Source: Octopus vulgaris (taxonomy: Eukaryota). Taken from it: a stretch of DNA of 64,000 nucleotides. This document shows positions 14,500 to 51,706 of the stretch, one piece after another. The notes under the pieces are model-generated. The model was given only the letters and a program-made list of their open reading frames with translations, did no database searches and was not told the DNA's origin. A program made the translations under genes and the position numbers. Location: contig OX597824.1 in assembly GCA_951406725.2 (NCBI GenBank), positions 57,970,001 through 58,034,000 of the forward strand, given 5' to 3'. Numbering within the stretch: the stretch's first letter is position 1; each line of letters starts with the position of its first letter.

Positions 14500-17400
14500 A
14501 GTGACGCTTGTAAGTGAGAGGCGGGAGAGTGAGGAGCGTCATCAAGACGTAGAGAAAGAGGGAGGGAGTGCGGCGCGCTAATGTCGCCCCGTTGAAAAAA
14601 ACAGATGACAGCCTGTTTTTAACAAGAGTGACGTTGAAATTGTTCACAAGGCGGAATATTTCAATAAGGAATTCTTGAAAAACAGTTCTATCTATCAACA
14701 ATAATTGTAGCAACAACAACTCCCAGCTGGAAGTGTAACAAACTAGCAACATACATAATAACAAGAGAAACAGAAGCAGAACATTTTTAACAGAGAAAAT
14801 AAATCCATTCCTTCATTACAAGCAGCAACAACAACAACAACAACAGCAACAAAAACAACAACATATCCAACGCATCTTTCGCCAAATTTGCTGAAGACAG
14901 ATGGGTGGAGCACTCCTTTAACAATGATTTTGGTAAAAATTTCCGAAAATGACTGGTAAAACCAAATTTTTTTCGTTCTATCATCAGGCAAAAAAGATCT
15001 GATCACAAAAAGAACAGTTCTCTATAGTTGTCACAATAAGAAGACCTGGTAGATTGAAAATCCTACTCCAGCACAGAAAGGAAAATGCCTAAAAGATGTC
15101 TGGGGTTCAAATTGCCACGTGAAGTGAGTAAGCTATTTGGATCTTTCGTTGCTATATGCCATAGCGAAGAGACATCGAAAAAGATGGCCTTGCACACTTG
15201 CTCCTCAGATGAATATATTTTCATCCTATCTTATTTGGAGTGGAAGGAGTAGTGAAAAAGGTTACTTTTTCAAATGTGCTTCCAGAGCTTAACATTCAGT
15301 ATTTCTGGATGATGCTGGATGAGTATGGTGATATTTTAAATTGGAAATCCATCCCGAAAGAAAATATATCGGTGGTCCAGGTGGAAGTGGAAATGCTGGT
15401 GACTGCAGAGAACTTTCATAGGTTCCCTGACATAATTTACATGGAAGGCGTGGAGCCCATAAGAGATGTGACTGAGGGCAAAAAAGCTTAAGTGTTACAT
15501 CTGCAGAAGTACAATCCATCAAAAGGCTTTCTGTCCTCAATTAAATAAACTGAAACCAGCCTTGTTGACAACTCCACATCCACATTTACAACAACCCTAT
15601 GAGCAGGTCAGGACCCCTACACCAAAACCTCGTCAACGGAAGATTTCCCCTTGCTCCTACAGAAGAGCATTCTCTTCCCAAACTTCTGGTCCCGCAAGTC
15701 AACAACAACGACTCAAGTTCTTCTTTCGACCAAATTTCTCCACCTCCTACCGATTCTTTTGGAAATCACTCGGAGAAGAAAGATCAGACAGAGGTATAGC
15801 AAACAGTAACCAAATGGGCAATACGAAAAGGAGCGGGGTACAGAAGCCCACTCTGAGAACTCAAAAAAACCAACTACAAACACAAAGATCATATATACAG
15901 CCCATTTCACATCCACTCCAACGATGACAACATTAACATCATCAACAACAAAAACAACAGCAGCAGCAACATCGACAACAACAGCAACATAATCATCAAC
16001 AACAACAACAACAACAGCAGTAGCAGCAGCAGCAACAACAACAACAACAGCAACAACAAAACACAGACACTAAAACTGTTAAAAGAAAACAATTTAATCG
16101 GTACACACAATGTTTCCATCAATTTTACTGTTGTGAACAAAAGCAACAATGACTTTTACCTAATTTTACCTAATTGAAAATAAAAAGTAAAATCCAGAGA
16201 AGTGGGAGGTATTTGATAATTTCATCCTCAAACCTGAATGACAGATTTTACAATAACAGGAGAAAATTTTTAACAAGGAAAATGAAATCATGTCCTCTAC
16301 TACAAGCAACAACAACAACAACAACAACAGTGTCTACCAACGCTACTTCGAAGCCGTTCTAAAAGCGGCCGGTTTCAGACCCCCTTTCAGAGGCTGGCCC
16401 GCTGCAGTGTACAACGGTATCTGCTCAGTGGTCAAAGTAAACGGTCAACCTATCGCCATCGTTTTGCATTGCACGCTCAGTCCATCAGGGCTTCTCGCTT
16501 TCATCTCTTCTCTACGTGCTGGCTCTCGAGCCTCTGCTGCGGAAGTTGGAACAGTTGAAGGGCATTTCTTTCGAACTAGGGACACTAGGATAGTGTCGGC
16601 TTACGCAGACGATGTCACTGTCATAATGTCGGACAACTCCGAAGCAGTGACAGTCGATTCCATTGTAAACGAATATGAGTCGGTTGCATGGGCCAAAATC
16701 AACGCCGACAAGTCGGTGGGATTGCAGCTGAGCACCTGGTGAGGCAGGTTGATGTCGTCAGACGGCGTCTTTGGACGCTGGATTGACGGACTAGTTTAAC
16801 TGCTCGAGGTCTAGTTCGGTCCTGACCTCTAAATGGATAAGAATTGGGACGAGGTGACGAACAGGATAGCCAGTCTTATCTAGAAATAGTCAGAGATGTT
16901 AGGCAGAGGTGACGAATGCCCACTTCGTCTCCGTTATCATTTGTCACCTGACCATCTTGCTGGAACGTCTCTTATTTTCATGTGGAAGGGAGTGTTCCAA
17001 TGATCCGGCAGTAGTCTACTGCCATCATACACTGCGTGGCCGCTTAGGAATGCCGGGGCTTCTGATGCACAGACATGCACTCAAGTTTCGTCACCTGCAA
17101 AGATTTCACGACGATGAACGTGTGTGGGCTCCGTTCGTGTGGCATGTTTTTCGGCAGCTTGTTTCTTTGACAGAGTTTCAGTCATGGGTGAAAAATAGAT
17201 CGAGAATGGGTGCCCGGAACCCAGAAAGTCATCAGGTGCTCACAACCCTCTACCAGTCGGGTTGTGAAATCTGTAGATGTTCCACTTTAGCAATATAAGT
17301 AGCGAGAAAGTGCGGCGAAGTTCTCGGGGAGACTCTAGGCGTCGACGAAAATGAACTGGCTAGTCTCTTCCGGAAGACTTCCCGGTTGGGCACTACCATG

Positions 17401-24242: not shown

Positions 24243-25750
24243 TGTTTCTTTATTAGCCACACAGGGCTGCACACAGACGGGACAAAATTACAAGGTAGAG
24301 CTTTTCTTTTGTGGGTAAAAGAAGGGGGTTTGGTTTTCGATCAAAAGGGATCGTAAAAGGAAAGAAAGAGGACAAAAATAGGGGAGGATTTAAAAAGGGG
24401 GGAGGGAAGAAAAGGGGAGAGGAAAAAAAAAAGTTGATCAATAGGGATCGTAATCACAGAAATGTCAATAAGAAGTGTAAAGAGGAGGACAGGTGAGGTT
24501 TACCCGTGGAAAGAAAAGCCTACGGAAAAGACCACGGTAACCTCGGTCAATGAAGCCACATGTTATATTTCTTTTTTTTTTTTTGCAAATAAGCAACTCT
24601 CTGTATTAATTTTTACGGTTCATAGCATCATAGTCAAGGTGGCTTCGTCATTCATACGTGCCATCCTTGCTACATTCACCCATCTTTTTTTAAAACATTC
24701 ACTAGACAGAACTTGCCTCTCTACTCTCACTTTCCTCTTCAAGTGATACTTGAAGAGGTTGATGAGAGATTGACCAGAGAGGAAAGTGTTTGTCTCTAAT
24801 CCTTTCAGGCGCGTCCACCAGGTACATTCTTTCGCTATAGTCACAAGTATGATAAAAATAGCTCTTCCTTCCCGTTTGAAGGAGGGAGGCGTGACAATAT
24901 TAACGATAGACTCGGCTGATAAACCGACACGTCCCACACGTGACAGCAGTCGTTCGTCATAAGCCCACAGGTTGGAAATTGCTGGACACTGCACGATTGC
25001 GTGCAGAGCGGTTTCGTCGCTCTGCCCGCATCTCGGGCAGGTCGGCCCCGTGTTTCTCGAGCCATGCCTATAGAGCTTATCCCGAACGGGTAGCGCTTCT
25101 CGGTAGCACCGCCAGGCCAGGGATCTCTGGAAGTTGTCCATAGGTCCCGGGCCGAAAGTCGTTTGAAACAGGCGGGTCAGGTATTCCTCGTCGACGCCCA
25201 GGTTTGCCCCGAGCTCGTCGTCGTACCTCCCCTCCACTAATCCCCTATAGAATGCTTTGGTTGTGTTGAAGTCACTCAAGGTCGACCCGGGACGGCAGAG
25301 TTGCTTGAGAGCAACGCGACACTCGCGGTGCCATTCGCCCTTCCTCGGCCTCTTTTTGATCCACGACTGCAGTTCGGTCATGGAGACGAGTTGCGGGAAT
25401 GCGTGCTTCACAAACGGCGACCACACCTGTTCACCGTCGTCTACATAGAGCCGGAGATGTCGCAGTCTCAGCGCGTGTCTGCGCATCATCAACCACGGCA
25501 TGCCCAGCCCTCCTTTTAACGGGTGTTGACAGCAAATGGATCGCCTGACCATCGGGACGCATCCTTTCCACAAGAAGCGGAAGAGAATGGGTTCTAGTTT
25601 GGTGATGGTAGGGTCGGGACAAGGTACGACGGTCAGGCGGTAGTAGATGATGGACGCGATGTACGTGTTCGCCACCTCCACCCGACCTTTTAGGGACAGT
25701 TTCCACTCGGCCCATTGCTGGGCGAGAGTGACCACCCTACTCGTTATCTC
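24243..25750 (-). mobile_element. 5'-truncated Tx1-clade LINE (copy A)
   Basis: Open 371-aa ORF2 C-terminus (KLSLKGRV, GGLGMP, CPRCGQSDETALHAIVQC zinc finger), 3' UTR and AATAAA; (GATA)n on both sides. Confidence 0.9.

Positions 25751-25817
<67 letters not shown>
25751..25817. repeat. (GATA)n spacer between the two Tx1 copies
   Basis: Seen directly. Confidence 0.95.
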
Positions 25818-25819
<2 letters not shown>

Positions 25820-28800
25820 CTTTTTATTGTGGCCACACAGGGCTAAACACAGAATAAAAATGGACGAAATACAATGTAGAGTTTTTTCTTTTCGAGGTGG
25901 GATGGGTGGGACACAAAGAAAAAGAAACGTTCGATCAATAGGGATCTGTGGGTTGTGTGGTGTATAAAAATATAATATATAAATAAAGTTTACACTTTAG
26001 GTGTAGCCCTGGAAAGAAAAACCTACAAAAAAGACCAAGGTCACCTCAGACAGTTCGAAAATGAACACATGAGTAAGTCGCCTTACCTCTCGTTGTCTCT
26101 TTTGGTCACAGATTTACGCTTAAAATAGTCTTGTCTTTCATACTGACCATTTTTGCCACTTTTACCCACTTTTTATTAAAACATTCGTTCGACAAAGCCT
26201 TCCTCTCTATTTTCATCCTCCTTTTCAAGTGGTACTTGAAAAGGTTGACGAGAGACTGACCAGAGAGGAAGGTGTTTGTTTGCAGTCCTTTCAAACGCGT
26301 CCAGCACACACATTCTTTCGCCATAGCCATCAGCGTAACGAAAACCGTTTTCCCTTCCCGTTTAAAGGAAGGTGGTGGAGCAATATTCACGATAGACTCG
26401 GCCGATAAGCGGGCTCGTCCTACACGCGACAACAGCTGTTCGACGAAGGTCCACAGCTCTGAAATATCTGGACACTGCACGAGTGCGTGCAGAACGGTTT
26501 CGTCGCTCTGACCGCATCTCGGGCAGGTCGGTCCGGTGATGGTTTTCGAACCGTGCCTGTAGCTCTTCTCTCGAACAGGTAGTGCGTCTCGATAGCATTG
26601 CCAAGCCAGGGATTTCTGGGAGTTATCCATAGGCCCCGGCCCGAACGTTGTCCTGAACAGGCGGGTTAGGAATTTCTCGTCCACGCCTAGGTTTGCCCCG
26701 AGTGTGTCGTCGGACCTCCCCTCCACTAGTCCTCTATAGAACGCTTTAGTCGTTTGTAAGTTGCACAAGTTTGACCCCGGTCGGCAGAGTTGCTGTAGAG
26801 CTTGGCGACACTCTCGGTGCCAATCGCCCAGTTTCGGTCTCTTCCTGATCCACGTTTGCAGTTCGGTCAGTGTGACGAGCTGCGGGAAGGCGCGCTTCAC
26901 AAAGGGCGCCCACACCTGTTCACCGTCATCGATGAAGTTCCGGAGATGTCGCAGTCTCAGCGCATGCCTACGCATCATCAACCACGGCATGCCTAGTCCT
27001 CCATTCAACGAATATTGACAGCAAATGGACCTCCTCACCATTGGAACGCCACCCTTCCACAGGAAGCGGAAGAGTATGCGTTCCAGTTTGGTGATGGTGG
27101 CGTCGGGACAGGGCACGACGGTCAGGCGGTAATCGATGACGGATGCGATGTACGCGTTCGCCACCTCCGCCCGACCTTTTAGAGACAGCTTTCTTTCGGC
27201 CCATGTTTGGCTGAGAGCGACCACTCTACTCGTGATCTCGTCCCAGTTCTTATCCATTTGGAGATCCGGACTGAACCAGACCCCGAGTAATTTAACCGGT
27301 CCGTCCGTCCAGCGTCCCACTACTGAGCCGCAGTCGGACGGCATGGGCTTGCTTCTCCAGGTGCCGAGTAGCAAACCCACTGACTTTTCCGGGTTAATCT
27401 TCGCTCCCGTCACCCTTTCGTATTTTCTTAGTGTCTCGCCTATCATCTGGATGTGTTTTTCACTCGACACTATGACGGTGACATCGTCCGCATATGCCGA
27501 CACGCTCGTCCCGCAACCCAGTTCCCGTGGGATGCCCCTCAGTGTCGCCAGCTTCCGCAGTAGTGGCTCGAGAGTCAATACATACAGAAGCGCCGACAGG
27601 GGACACCCCTGACGGACCGAACGCGTGATGTCAAACGGGTTCGACAGGTGACCGTTCACCCGAATCACCGATCGGATGCCGCTATACAAGGCAGCGATCC
27701 AACCGCGGAAGACGGGACCGAAGCCAGCCGCCCTGAGGACGGCCGCCAAGTACCGATGGTCGACCCTATCGAAGGCTTTAGACTGATCCAAATTGATCAG
27801 CGCCCCACCCATGCCAGGATCCTTAACTACCCTGTCCATAATGTAGCGCATCAGATGGAGGTTGTCATGTATGGTTCTGCCCGGCACGGCGCATGTTTGC
27901 TCCCTGTCGACCAGTTTACCAATGACAAGCGCCAACCTCTCGGCTATTACTTTGGCCAAAATTTTCAAATCTGCGTTGAGCAGAGAGATGGGCTTGAAAT
28001 TATCTATAAAATTCCCCTTGTTTGGGTCTTTCTTCAGCAACGTCACTGCACCTCGGCTCACGAAACCGGGGATTCTCCCGTTTTGTTGCCAGTTGCAGTA
28101 GACTGATGCCAAGAGGTCGCCAAACAAGTCTGGCATTTGACAATACAGCTCGTAGGGTAAACCATCCAAACCAGGCGACTTATCCCATCCCGCACGTCAG
28201 CGGCTGTGATGGGACTTTCACAACACTCCACTTCTCTTGCCGAGAGCCGCGGCAGGTCGGTCAGGTAGGCACTGAGATCCATCCCGCGTTCCGACCCACC
28301 ACTCACACCAAACAGTCGAGCAAAGTGCTGTTGAAAGGCCTCACACATCTTTTCGGATTCGAGTAAACTGTATCCCTGTTGATCTATTAGAGACCGAATG
28401 GTGGCTCTGTTGCCATGCTGTGCCTCTGCTACCCGGGCCTCTCGCGCAGCTTCGATCCCTTCGTTCCTTAAGGCACCCATTTTAGCTCTGACGACGCAAC
28501 CTTCGTGCTTGGCGTTGAGGTGTTGGTCGAGGGCCATCCTCGCAGCCAGCACGCTGCCAGTGGTAAGTGCCTCTTCTAGTTTCTTAACTAAGTCTCCCTC
28601 CACTCTATTTCGATCTATCGCTAATTCCTTGCTAAACCTAATTGATTCCGATTTTATTGCCATTTTCAGGGCGAACCACCAGCGGTTGTTAACGACGGCT
28701 CCCGTCAGCGCCCTCTTAATTAACTCACTAATCCGGTTCCTGTAAACCTGTCGCGCTAAGAGCGACGTGTTCAGTTTCCAGTAACCGGGACCCTGTCTAT

Positions 28801-30380
28801 GTGTCTTATCTAAGTCGAGCTCACACGTCACAAATTTGTGATCTGTGTAGCTGACTATTTTAAATTGTGGACATCCTACACTATCCCTATCCGCTGTCCT
28901 GCATAGAATTCTATCTAGATAAGATCTCGACGATCCGGCGCGGTTTGTCCAATTCCACGTTGGCACGTTCGGATGGTCGAGTCGGAATCTGTCAGACAAA
29001 TGGAAACGTCTGAGTAGGTCTTTGAGGTACTTACACCCCCTTCTATTCCTATCCATTCCCACATAATCTATATGCGTGTCCAATGTAGCGTTCCAATCCC
29101 CTACTAACAGTAAAGGTCTAGGCGTACCCAGGAAAAACTCTAGACGTCTGAAGAAATCCGCCCGACCCGTTAAGGACGGTGCATAAACTGCCATCAGTCG
29201 GAATGCACACCCATTTCTGCCATCCACGTCCAAGACAACCAGCCTACCCTCCGGGTCTAGGAATATTGTTCTTACTTTTACATTTAGACTCTTTCGAAAA
29301 AGTACCGCGGTGCCTCCACCACCCATGTTCGGCAGACAGGGAGAAAAATAAATGTCGAATTGATCGCCAAGCATGGACGCGAGAGCCCGCGGCTTGCTGA
29401 GTCTGGTTTCACTGATAGCTACTATATCCACGTTCAGTGAGTTGATGTCGTTTAGAAGGTAACCTTGTTTCCTAGCCTACGCCAAGCCACGCGCATTCAC
29501 ACAACCTAATTTAAGCATAATTGACGTTTAAGGAATTTATGTTTCACACACTACATTGGAAAAGACAAGAGGCAAGAGGGAAGGCCACTTACCCATTTTG
29601 AAAGTTTCAGTTTTTTCTTCATCTTTTGTAGTGTCTTTGAGGAGGTGTTTGAATAGTTTTTTGGAGAGGTATTTTTGAAACCCTCCTACTGCATTTGGAA
29701 ATATGGTTTTCAGTGTATGGTGTTGTGTTTGTGTTATGTGTAAAATTCTTATGTGTTTCGGTGGAGTGGTGCGCGTATGGTTATTTGTCTTAAAGTCATC
29801 TTCGCAGATGTTCGGGTTGGATGCAATGTAATCCATTAGTTTTTTATTGTCCGTGTCTATTGCTGTTAGTTGTGTGTGGGGTTTTGCGGGGTCATTGATT
29901 TTTTTTTTCTAAGGGGATGCTGTCTGGAGTTAAATATCTCCCTGCTTTACTTCCTTGTTTGGTGGGCTTTTTTGGTCTTTTCCTTTTACCCCCTGTGGCT
30001 ATTTGCCATTCCGTCGAACTTTCGTCGTTGGACGACGAGTCCGAATCAGAAGAGGGTAAAGGCAAAGCGTTTGGATATATATATGTGTTTGTAGAAGGTG
30101 TTGTTGTTTTGTGTGGTGGTTGTGTTGTTGGGGTATTAGGGGCAGGATTTGTCTTTTCGTCATTGTTATTTGTTTTTTTGGTTGTTGTTCTTGGTGCTGG
30201 TGTTGGTGTTGGTCTGTATTTGATGTTGGTGATGTTGCTTCTTTTGTTGGTTGCGATGTCGGAGGTAATTCTCTTCTTGGTGATGTGGTTGGTGAGGGGG
30301 AAGCAGTTTTTGTATCGTCCGCTGTTTTTCCTGTCTTTTGGGTTGAAGGTGGTGTGGGTAGCGTGATCTAGATTCAATCC
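25818..30380 (-). mobile_element. Tx1-clade LINE (copy B): complete ORF2 region plus ORF1 C-terminus
   Basis: APE endonuclease, RT and zinc finger. ORF1 remnant at 29537-30380 is T/K/S-rich. The 3' end AATAAAAAG abuts (TATC)n. Confidence 0.9.
26106..29518 (-). pseudogene. Tx1 ORF2 (APE endonuclease + RT + zinc finger), inactivated
   Basis: MLKLGCVNARGLA* (early TAG), ISET, VYAP, GDWN, YLDR, TDH, YWKLN; frameshift near 28170-28190; PISLLNADLKI, LDQSKAFDRV, QGCPLS, YADD. Confidence 0.9.
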
Positions 30381-49639: not shown

Positions 49640-49780
49640 TTGTGGCTGTGTGGTAATAGATTTCCTTCCCACTCAGTCTCACTGCGTAACACCTTGAGCA
49701 GATGTCCTCTAATATGGCCTGGGGCCGACCAAAGCTTAATGAGTGGAATTGGCTTACTGATACCGAAAGAAGCCCATCAT
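49640..49780 (+). mobile_element. Decayed CORE-like SINE 5' half
   Basis: TGTGGCTGTGTGGTAA...GGCCGACCAAAGC...GAAAGAAGCCC. Confidence 0.65.
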
Positions 49781-49786
49781 AAATGA

Positions 49787-50156
49787 TGAGGGCGTCCCTC
49801 AAGAATCACCGGATACCTGGACCCGGCCATCCTAAAAAAATCTGGGAACACCAGATCATCGGCTGATTGGGTCCACAGGGTCAAAACTGCTTTTGACCCC
49901 ACCCAATCAGCCGCAGGCATCATTTTAACATTCAAGAGCTTGGCTCCGCTGTCACTCAGACCCCGGCGGGTAGTGTCCTCTATTCACTCGGGCTCTATTC
50001 CGGGTGGCAGCCCAAACACCCAAGCTCTTGTCAATTTCCTCCCACGAAATGTGGGCAGAAACAGAATTTTCTCCCCTTCCAGGGGCTGGTTCGTAAAAGT
50101 GCGAGCCTCCTCAGGGGTATCAAATAGCAACCACACTGTTGCATATTTGACACCTC
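49787..50156 (+). other. Unassigned GC-rich segment of consecutive stem-loops (candidate structured RNA)
   Basis: About nine back-to-back hairpins identifiable by eye, several with G-U pairs that form only on the + strand. Confidence 0.55.
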
Positions 50157-50157
50157 G

Positions 50158-51706
50158 TTTTATTTTCTATAATTTTCACAGACAATAAATACGATATTAA
50201 TTGTTATTGTCTGAGATTTTTGTGTAATTTGAGAGGATAATACAAAAGTTATGGATGATTTAGTGATTTACTGCAAAACCCATGGCGGCCAAAATGATCA
50301 GAACGGTTGCTTTTACTCCATGTTTTAGTATATTTAACAGGTGAACTCTAATGTTTTGAATTTGTTTACCTGACGGTTCATTTACTAAACATTAGTAAGA
50401 GTATCTGCAGTGTACTTTGTTAATATAATGCCACTTACTCCGTTACCAATTCGTCAGCAGATTATTAAGCTTCGAAAGAAGGATAATTTAAGTATTGGGT
50501 CTATTGCAAAGATTGTTAACAAGTGAAAAAGTGTTGTTCACGGTATTCTTAAGGTCTACGATGATTGTGGTTCGTGTGAAGCAAGAAAGTCTACAGGTAG
50601 GCCAAGAAAAACGACCAAGAGAGAAGATCGTGCTGTGGTAAAGTTGGTTAAAAAGGACAGATTTAAAACTGCTGCTGCTGTTTCTCGGGAAACGAGCATT
50701 TGTACTGAAGAAAACTTTATCTTGAAAAACTGTGTCTCGTCGTTTAGTTGAACATGACCTACAAGCAAGAGCACCTGCAGTGAAGCCACTGATCAGCTCC
50801 AAGAATAAAAAGTGTCGTCTTATCTTTGCAACCGAACATGTGTTGTGGTCTCAAGAAAAATGGCAAACAGTGCATTTCCGAGATGAATCTAAGTCTACGT
50901 TATTTGACTCAGATAGTAAAAGGTACGTTTGTCAAAAAGTAGGTGAAAAATTGTCGCCTAAATGCCTTAAGACTAGTGTTAAATTCGGTGGAGGAAGTGT
51001 CATGGTTTGGTTGATGATATCTGGAGATGGTGTGGGTCCTTTGGTGCGATTACATGGAAAGGTAAATGCAGGAGTTTATAAACAACTTGTAAAAGATCAT
51101 GTCTTGCCTGTGCTGAGAAATTCAACTAAGCGATCACCCATATTCATGCAGGACAATGCCCCATGTCACAAGGCTAAGGTGGTCATGAACTTTCTCAAGG
51201 CTGAAAAGGTTATTGTTATGGATTGGCCTGCTCAAAGCCCAGATCTCAATCCTATTGAAAATGTGTGGAATATTCTAGGAGAACGTTCGAAAGCCAGAAA
51301 TCCTAAAACAACCGAGCAATTATGGAATGCCCTTCAGGAAGAATGGAATAAGATCACCCAGCAAGAAATTGAAAATTTAATTTCCTCATGCAGTCGAAGA
51401 TGTCAAAGTGTGATTGAAGCTAAAGGGCTTCACACTAAATATTAAATTATTCCAGTATTCTCTGTTAATTTTTATTATTTTGTTATTTTTTTCAACCGTT
51501 CTGATCATTTTGGCCGCCATGGGTTTTGCAGTAAATCACTAAATCATCTATACCTTTTGTATTATCCTCTCAAATTACACCAATATCTCAGACAATAATA
51601 ATTAATATCCTATTTATTGTTTGTTAAAATTATAGACTATAAAACAACTTTGATAAAAACTTTTCTGACAAAATCAATGCCGTTCTGAACATTTTGGCCG
51701 CAACTG
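50158..51706 (+). mobile_element. Tc1 (DD34E) transposon with long IR/DR-type TIRs; outer part of the left TIR missing
   Basis: The right TIR (~51493-51706) ends ...GGCCGCAACTG|TA and has two CCGTTCTGA.CATTTTGGCCGC direct repeats; 50158-50309 is its inverted copy. Confidence 0.92.
50428..51445 (+). pseudogene. Tc1 transposase with an early stop and a frameshift
   Basis: MPLTPLPIRQQII..VNK*, GRPRKTT, FRDESK, FMQDNAPCH, SPDLNPIENVW; 34 residues between the second D and E. Confidence 0.92.

What the first reader, a model, noticed from the sequence alone, without database searches (positions are those of the whole stretch)
49787..50156. ~370-nt segment built almost wholly of hairpins with + strand-specific G-U pairs: candidate unknown structured RNA
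Seen, in order: TGAGGG/CCCTCA; CCGG/CCGG; TCTGG/CCAGA; CGGCTGATTGGGT..GGGTCAAAA-ctgc-TTTTGACCC..ACCCAATCAGCCG (13+9 bp, 49860-49913); a ~100-nt rod CAAGAGCTTGG/CCAAGCTCTTG enclosing GCTGTCACTC/GGGTGGCAGC, CCCG/CGGG and GGGTAG/CTATTC (49933-50030); CCCAC/GTGGG; CCCC/GGGG; GGTTCGT/GCGAGCC; and GGTATCAAATAGCAAC/GTTGCATATTTGACACC. Several G-U pairs work only on +, as expected for selection on an RNA fold rather than on DNA palindromes. There is no credible ORF, pol III box or ribozyme core. It lies between a cut SINE and the cut left TIR of the Tc1. Inference: a retro-copied structured RNA (ncRNA, viroid-like or viral UTR/IRES) or the terminal domain of an unknown mobile element.
Basis: partly seen in the sequence, partly recalled or inferred. 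Interest (0 to 1): 0.72.

Follow-up and report, generated by a model that had tools for sequence, protein, structure and literature searches.

The report
Tightly folded octopus half-LINE coding fragment
The hairpins are real, but they are a 370-base scrap of the protein-coding region of an octopus jumping gene that keeps only one predicted RNA-binding protein and sits at one fixed spot in a common short repeat; its whole coding RNA is predicted to fold unusually tightly, likely to make it last longer while it borrows a partner's copying enzyme.

Summary
The fold is real: z -7.9 on +, -6.2 on -. It is not a stand-alone non-coding RNA. The segment is an internal, minus-strand piece (about 123 codons, one stop) of the single ORF of a 2.0-2.3 kb multi-copy element. 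That ORF encodes a predicted tandem-RRM plus zinc-knuckle protein under purifying selection (dN/dS 0.12-0.43). Copies sit in one 15-bp duplicated site of a tRNA-type SINE (64 of 68 3' ends). An intact Tx1-type LINE uses the same site (28 of 30) and shares a short 3' tail.

The + strand argument fails: 7 of the 8 G-U pairs are Watson-Crick in 41-51 of 54 copies, and one of them is the stop mutation.

The scan has reported this SINE-targeting half-LINE system several times on other DNA. What this finding adds: the whole ORF folds far better than synonymous-codon shuffles (mean z -5.9 to -8.0), against -1.3 to -3.6 for partner and other Tx1-type ORFs. The same hairpins persist in a subfamily whose synonymous sites are near saturation. 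The function of the structure is inferred only.

The parts
49787..50156 (-). Internal fragment of the ORF1-like gene of an ORF1-only (half-LINE) element: end of predicted RRM1, all of RRM2, up to just before the CCHC knuckle; about residues 64-185 of an intact 414-aa copy
   Evidence: Translation; 88-93% identity to old full copies and 79% to a young intact copy over 49790-50154; model and fold search
49984..49986 (-).
   Evidence: pair 49969/49984 is G-C in 51 of 54 copies
50114..50156 (-). Hairpin coding for GVKYATVWLLFDT
   Evidence: Helix 1, 91% of cells paired, 6 of 17 pairs with a double change
50088..50107 (-). Small hairpin with a shared compensatory change (C-G to A-U in 11 of 54 copies)
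   Evidence: Helix 3
49933..50030 (-). Rod of three stacked helices inside the coding frame; U-A to C-G in 17 of 54 and G-C to A-U in 7 of 54, but two outer pairs broken in 25 and 34 of 54
   Evidence: Helices 7-9, 84-90% paired
49860..49913 (-). 13+9 bp hairpin coding for ADWVGSKAVLTLWTQSA; best conserved element
   Evidence: Helices 11 and 12, 89% and 95% paired, 7 and 3 pairs with double changes
49643..49783 (+). Decayed, truncated tRNA-type SINE abutting the fragment; opposite orientation, so not the fragment's own insertion site
   Evidence: Sequence; 73% match over 49673-49775 to the SINE body behind an intact element
50157..51706 (+). Tc1-type DNA transposon with frameshifted transposase; left TIR truncated where it meets the fragment
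   Evidence: 153-nt inverted repeat, 93%; DDE_3 and HTH_Tnp_Tc3_2; TIR comparison

Best explanation
The segment is a decayed internal piece of the only reading frame of a multi-copy, ORF1-only non-LTR retroelement that sits in one fixed site of a tRNA-type SINE, and its hairpins are part of a predicted fold that covers the whole coding RNA and is likely kept by selection alongside the protein. Shown: the element's anatomy (0.5-0.8 kb leader, one ORF of about 415 codons, short tail, 15-bp target duplication, no RT or endonuclease), purifying selection on the protein, a complete Tx1-type LINE at the same site with a similar 3' tail, and excess predicted folding over codon shuffles. Inferred: the element's RNA makes ORF1p in cis and borrows the partner's ORF2p for target-primed reverse transcription. 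Inferred, about 40% among the possible functions: the dense coding-region structure lengthens the life of the RNA, which matters more for an RNA that must wait for an enzyme supplied in trans. The copy in the window is a dead remnant with no function of its own.
For: Repeat family: 40 of 40 scored candidates match at 85-100%, of 1852 first-look candidates. Target motif at both ends in 28 of 40 larger loci by a strict pattern and after 64 of 68 3' ends. Intact 414-435 codon frames in young copies. zf-CCHC; model pLDDT 86 whose best matches are two-RRM proteins, E 1.4e-4. ORF is 30% identical to the partner's ORF1, E 1e-23. dN/dS 0.12-0.43 in 15 of 15 pairs over this region. Partner ORF2 has endonuclease, RT and zf-RVT; 28 of 30 partner 3' ends abut the same motif. 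Folding: all 30 copies z -2.8 to -18.8 on the sense strand. Codon-shuffle z -5.1 to -11.1 in 8 of 8 copies against -1.0 to -3.2 for the homologous part of 6 Tx1 ORF1s. Whole ORF mean z -5.9, -6.4, -8.0 against -1.7 and -2.5 for partner ORF1 and ORF2 and -2.6 to -3.6 for four other ORF1s. Named structure: 85.7% of cells paired, 33 of 119 pairs with a double change (8 of 500 shuffles as high). Changed pairs stay paired more often than in codon shuffles at <=1/1000 in 4 of 6 divergent copies. Sense-strand excess larger in 16 of 23 windows, Wilcoxon p 0.007. Structured coding sequence lengthens functional mRNA half-life in human cells (PMC6883848, abstract read).
Against: All structure is predicted; no probing data. 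RNAalifold on the 54 copies gives only a weak consensus (-15.7 kcal/mol, 37 pairs, largely different from the named fold). The covariation control ignores relatedness, and the named structure came from one of the aligned copies. Strand evidence is modest: shared G-U versus A-C variants 16 to 10 (p 0.16), and 23 to 35 among variants in 3-6 rows; windows are not independent. In one search two of six copies are weak (17/1000, 53/1000), about half or more of changed pairs are broken, and decay in the window copy inflates 'kept' counts. Autonomous Tx1 ORFs also have single windows at z -5 to -11. Two other ORF1-only-like elements are not strongly folded (mean z -1.7, -1.3), so trans-dependence alone does not produce the fold. 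The shared 3' tail is only about 30 nt, and the ORF1 tree does not make the same-site partner the sister of this family.
Confidence: 0.8

Rival explanations
1. Same element, but the stems are a specific signal for particle assembly: they would bind ORF1p or recruit the partner's ORF2p.
For: The same hairpins recur at the same places in divergent subfamilies; the encoded protein is a predicted RNA-binding protein.
Against: Excess folding is spread over the whole ORF, not one site; no conserved loop motif was looked for or seen; LINE partners are usually recognised at the 3' tail (PMC4494074, passages).
Confidence: 0.25
2. Same element, but the structure shields the RNA from piRNA or siRNA targeting by lowering site accessibility.
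For: Diffuse structure over the whole ORF fits; that structured targets resist small-RNA complexes is recalled knowledge, from no call.
Against: No small-RNA data were examined; the autonomous partner should face the same pressure yet is much less folded.
Confidence: 0.15
3. The stems are a by-product of mutation: template switching at near-palindromes during reverse transcription or DNA repair perfects inverted repeats without selection.
For: Mostly Watson-Crick stems, strong on both strands; weak G-U strand bias.
Against: Partner and other ORF1-only-like elements are copied the same way and are far less folded; slight sense-strand excess; G-U variants shared by 7 or more copies at 16 pairs.
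Confidence: 0.15
4. An independent structured non-coding RNA (ncRNA, viroid-like or viral UTR) acting from the + strand.
For: Strong + strand fold, z -7.9.
Against: Part of a coding frame under purifying selection; continues into the element on both sides; + strand G-U pairs are decay; no Rfam match.
Confidence: 0.02

Closest known systems
ORF1-present non-autonomous LINEs: HAL1 (L1 clade), HeT-A (Jockey), Ag-Sponge (CR1) (PMC5786205 and PMC5753468, passages read; the Bao and Jurka 2010 HAL1 paper was not held)
   Same: One ORF1-type protein, no RT or endonuclease, dependence on an autonomous LINE inferred, protein under purifying selection.
   Different: Related to Tx1-type rather than L1, Jockey or CR1 elements; strict site specificity inside a SINE; strongly folded coding RNA, which the passages read do not mention for these families.
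Target-specific Tx1-clade LINEs: Tx1 in Tx1D, Keno in U2, Tx1-Mar in Mariner-N4_AMi with the passenger SINEU (PMC4494074, passages read)
   Same: Sequence-specific insertion into another repeat, target duplication, tandem copies sandwiching the duplication, non-autonomous passengers using the same site.
   Different: Target is a tRNA-type SINE, between A-box-like and B-box-like motifs (motifs recalled, positions read from sequence); the passenger codes for a protein.
Structured coding sequences that extend mRNA half-life (PMC6883848, abstract read); genome-scale ordered RNA structure of RNA viruses (recalled; search listing only)
   Same: Excess secondary structure written into synonymous codon choice along a whole ORF.
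   Different: Here in a natural retroelement RNA; the effect on half-life is untested.

Membership tests
ORF1-present non-autonomous LINE (HAL1-type organisation) | Only ORF1 between the element ends; no ORF2 | tested here: met
   2.0-2.3 kb between target duplications with one ORF of about 415 codons
ORF1-present non-autonomous LINE (HAL1-type organisation) | ORF is homologous to ORF1 of an autonomous LINE | tested here: met
   30% identity over 194 aa, E 1e-23; alignment with 7 Tx1-type ORF1 rows
ORF1-present non-autonomous LINE (HAL1-type organisation) | ORF1 kept under purifying selection | tested here: met
   dN/dS 0.12-0.43 over the fragment region, 15 pairs of 6 natural copies
ORF1-present non-autonomous LINE (HAL1-type organisation) | 3' end shared with the partner LINE | tested here: inconclusive
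   Only the last ~30 nt resemble each other
ORF1-present non-autonomous LINE (HAL1-type organisation) | Mobilised in trans by the partner's ORF2p | not testable with these tools
   Inferred from the shared site and duplication
HAL1 proper | Derived from mammalian L1 | tested here: not met
   Protein has a CCHC knuckle and matches Tx1-type ORF1s of this genome; best database hit is an uncharacterised Octopus protein
Tx1 clade | ORF2 with apurinic-type endonuclease, RT and C-terminal zinc domain | tested here: not met
   Absent from this element; present in the same-site partner
Tx1 clade | Sequence-specific target with duplication | tested here: met
   64 of 68 element 3' ends, 28 of 30 partner 3' ends
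Tx1 clade | RT phylogeny groups the partner with described Tx1 elements | not tested
   No reference Tx1 sequences were in hand; 'Tx1-type' rests on domain order, the knuckle-bearing ORF1 and target specificity
Stand-alone structured ncRNA, ribozyme or viroid-like RNA | Match to a curated RNA family | tested here: not met
   No gathering-level Rfam hit in 64 kb; best E 0.028
Stand-alone structured ncRNA, ribozyme or viroid-like RNA | Non-coding, with its own ends | tested here: not met
   Coding frame under selection; homology runs on past both ends
Conserved RNA structure within a coding region | Folding beyond synonymous-codon shuffles and pair-preserving changes | tested here: met
   with the caveats on relatedness and a weak RNAalifold consensus
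Conserved RNA structure within a coding region | Structure confirmed by chemical probing | not testable with these tools
   No probing data

The most novel reading that the evidence does not exclude
A lineage of SINE-targeting half-LINEs has written a second, structural code through its whole reading frame: a naturally evolved, heavily base-paired mRNA kept across near-saturated synonymous divergence and missing from its autonomous partner, serving as an adaptation for stealing reverse transcriptase in trans.
Probability: 0.4. Interest if true: 0.62.

Novelty: new variant of a known kind. Interest (0 to 1): 0.4.

Why it matters
As an unknown non-coding RNA the finding does not stand. As a property of the element it is useful. 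It gives a natural pair: two relatives with the same target and host, one autonomous and weakly folded, one dependent and strongly folded. That makes it testable which RNA features let a non-autonomous element compete for a partner's enzyme, and whether coding-region structure is selected for RNA lifetime. It is also a caution for scans: strand-specific G-U pairs in a single old repeat copy arise from ordinary C-to-T decay and do not show the strand of an RNA.

Tried and rejected
Rfam: nothing at gathering level; six weak hits. ARAGORN: no tRNA in the window. Pfam found no RRM family in the ORF; only zf-CCHC, over the cut-off in 1 of 8 and under it in others; the RRM call rests on the predicted model. 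Protein database search gave 2 hits, both Octopus records. ESM Atlas hits at 0.89-0.92 to CCHC and RNA-binding clusters are leads only. RNA editing: no A-to-G excess among private changes (A>G versus T>C 19/19, 27/24, 55/57 in three subfamilies of 24, 15 and 13 copies; 108/123 across 54 copies). The searches favoured well-matching copies, so heavily edited ones could have been missed. 'All half-LINEs are folded': rejected, two other ORF1-only-like elements were not. Direct descent from the same-site partner: not shown, the tree leaves the root open (2 of 18 rows skipped). Expression: no RNA holder on record; in four runs guessed to be RNA, low-depth contigs cover most of the element in three and none of its body in one; this is no evidence either way. 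Branch-by-branch counting of pair-preserving changes on a tree was not obtained, so event-level covariation remains open. Literature: searches (listings and abstract starts) showed no title or abstract on a SINE-targeting ORF1-only octopus element or on structured ORF1 coding RNA; Repbase and subscription papers were not searchable and may hold the family; no supplements were read.

Full report
Observation. The + strand folds at -152.5 kcal/mol, z -7.9, and the - strand at -164.4, z -6.2, with 0 of 100 dinucleotide shuffles as stable on either strand. Rfam has no gathering-level match in the window and only weak hairpin hits around the segment. The flanks are a decayed SINE and a Tc1 with a truncated left TIR.

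What it is part of. A search of the own genome (2.8 Gb) gave 1852 first-look candidates; the 40 scored match at 85-100%. In the 29 other loci fetched, homology runs on past the left end in 28 and past the right end in 27 (by eye). The minus strand of the segment reads 123 codons with one stop. In relatives this frame continues into a CCHC knuckle. Longer stretches show a 2.0-2.3 kb element: a 0.5-0.8 kb leader, one ORF and a short tail, flanked by a 15-bp duplication inside the head of a tRNA-type SINE. A strict pattern found the motif at both ends in 28 of 40 loci and after 64 of 68 3' ends, 49 followed by the SINE body and 15 by another element or other sequence. Young subfamilies have intact 414-435 codon frames. 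The best protein hit is an uncharacterised Octopus sinensis protein at 65%, which places the host as an octopus. No other part of the element is in the window, so this copy is a remnant.

The protein. An AlphaFold model of the first 205 residues (13-row alignment, pLDDT 86) matches two-RRM proteins such as hnRNP A1 UP1 (E 1.4e-4; TM 0.26 for the best rows, 0.38 at most). Pairwise dN/dS among 6 natural copies is 0.12-0.43 over the fragment region (15 pairs). The segment is therefore coding sequence that was under selection as protein.

The partner. Downstream of one copy lies a full LINE inserted in the same SINE site. Its ORF1 is 30% identical to this ORF (E 1e-23). An intact 1140-aa ORF2 carries endonuclease, RT and zf-RVT domains. 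28 of 30 partner 3' ends abut the same motif, and the last ~30 nt resemble the half-element's tail. I call it Tx1-type from its domains and targeting; no RT tree with references was built. In an ORF1 tree of 16 rows the 6 ORF1-only rows form one side of a fully supported long branch, but the partner is not shown to be their sister.

The strand argument. The + fold of the window copy has 8 G-U pairs. Seven are Watson-Crick in 41-51 of 54 aligned copies; one is shared but lies in a weak 4-bp helix. The change at 49984 is both a 'G-U pair' and the stop codon. Against the column majority the window copy has 6 G>A, 1 C>T, 1 T>C and 0 A>G changes on the sense strand. So the G-U pairs are decay and say nothing about strand. 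Direct strand evidence is mild and favours the coding strand: better z in 20 of 30 copies (15 shuffles each) and larger excess in 16 of 23 windows (p 0.007, windows not independent). Shared G-U versus A-C variants are 16 to 10 (p 0.16), and 23 to 35 at intermediate counts.

The structure is a family property. All 30 copies fold beyond dinucleotide shuffles. Against synonymous-codon shuffles, which keep the protein and codon usage, 8 of 8 copies give z -5.1 to -11.1, while the homologous part of 6 Tx1-type ORF1s gives -1.0 to -3.2. Over whole ORFs in 300-nt windows the means are -5.9, -6.4 and -8.0 for three intact copies, -1.7 for partner ORF1, -2.5 for partner ORF2 and -2.7 for another ORF2. 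Four other ORF1s give -2.6 to -3.6, two other ORF1-only-like frames -1.7 and -1.3, and the window's Tc1 frame +0.6. Single windows of autonomous elements reach -5 to -11, so the contrast is in density, not in kind. The fold is not confined to these 370 bases.

Is it selected? With the window's own fold as the named structure, 85.7% of 6393 cells pair, 33 of 119 pairs show a double change (8 of 500 shuffles as high) and 97 cells do (0 of 500); this control ignores relatedness. The most distant intact subfamily (synonymous difference 0.65-0.71; 70% DNA identity) keeps 81 of 119 pairs against 66 expected, and its own fold has hairpins at matching places. Among pairs that differ from the window copy, the share still paired exceeds codon shuffles at <=1/1000 in 4 of 6 copies, 17/1000 and 53/1000 in the other two. 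Against this, RNAalifold on all 54 rows, many of them decayed, gives a weak and largely different consensus, and many changed pairs are broken. I judge selection on the RNA fold likely, about 75%, but not proven.

Mechanism. Shown: anatomy, target, duplication, partner, coding selection, predicted excess folding. Inferred: the RNA is translated to ORF1p, packaged, and copied into the SINE site by the partner's ORF2p. Inferred with less support: dense coding-region pairing lengthens RNA life, as shown for synthetic mRNAs (PMC6883848, abstract). Rivals are a specific assembly signal, shielding from small RNAs, and mutational perfection of palindromes. No A-to-G editing excess was seen in the copies sampled.

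Known and new. ORF1-only LINE derivatives (HAL1, HeT-A, Ag-Sponge; PMC5786205 and PMC5753468, passages) and repeat-targeting Tx1 elements with passengers (PMC4494074, passages) are described. My literature searches (listings) showed no report of this octopus system or of its folded ORF; Repbase could not be checked. The scan's own notes already describe SINE-targeting half-LINEs in this genome many times (none by sequence). Verdict: new variant of a known kind; interest 0.4.

Noticed in passing
window 24791-28983 (-) and 16384-16855 (+): Decayed pieces of a Tx1-type LINE ORF2, 65-67% identical to the SINE-targeting partner.
   Followed up: no
window 50157-51706: Tc1-type transposon with a frameshifted transposase; the right TIR has an internal 22-nt direct repeat and the left TIR lacks about 60 outer bases.
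   Followed up: partly
L082, L089, L095, L097, L208, L209, L220: Head-to-tail trains of different ORF1-only subfamilies and the autonomous LINE, each joint carrying the 15-bp target motif.
   Followed up: partly
L096 and L099 junctions: One subfamily sits in the commoner SINE variant whose target differs at two positions, while young subfamilies sit in another variant; target choice may have shifted with SINE subfamilies.
   Followed up: no
L025, about 1867: A 5'-truncated copy joins the SINE head at the base of the first hairpin, the same point where the window fragment ends; a short microhomology could also explain it.
   Followed up: no
L140 (upstream frame of 415 codons) and L150 (upstream frame of 497 codons): Two other ORF1-only-like elements stand directly in front of full LINEs and end in the same kind of tail; they are not strongly folded.
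   Followed up: partly
L136, ORF1, second 300-nt window: One window of an autonomous ORF1 folds at z -11 against codon shuffles; cause not examined.
   Followed up: no
public runs of organisms A-D: Words of a young element are held by runs labelled as four organisms; only runs of organism A were laid.
   Followed up: no
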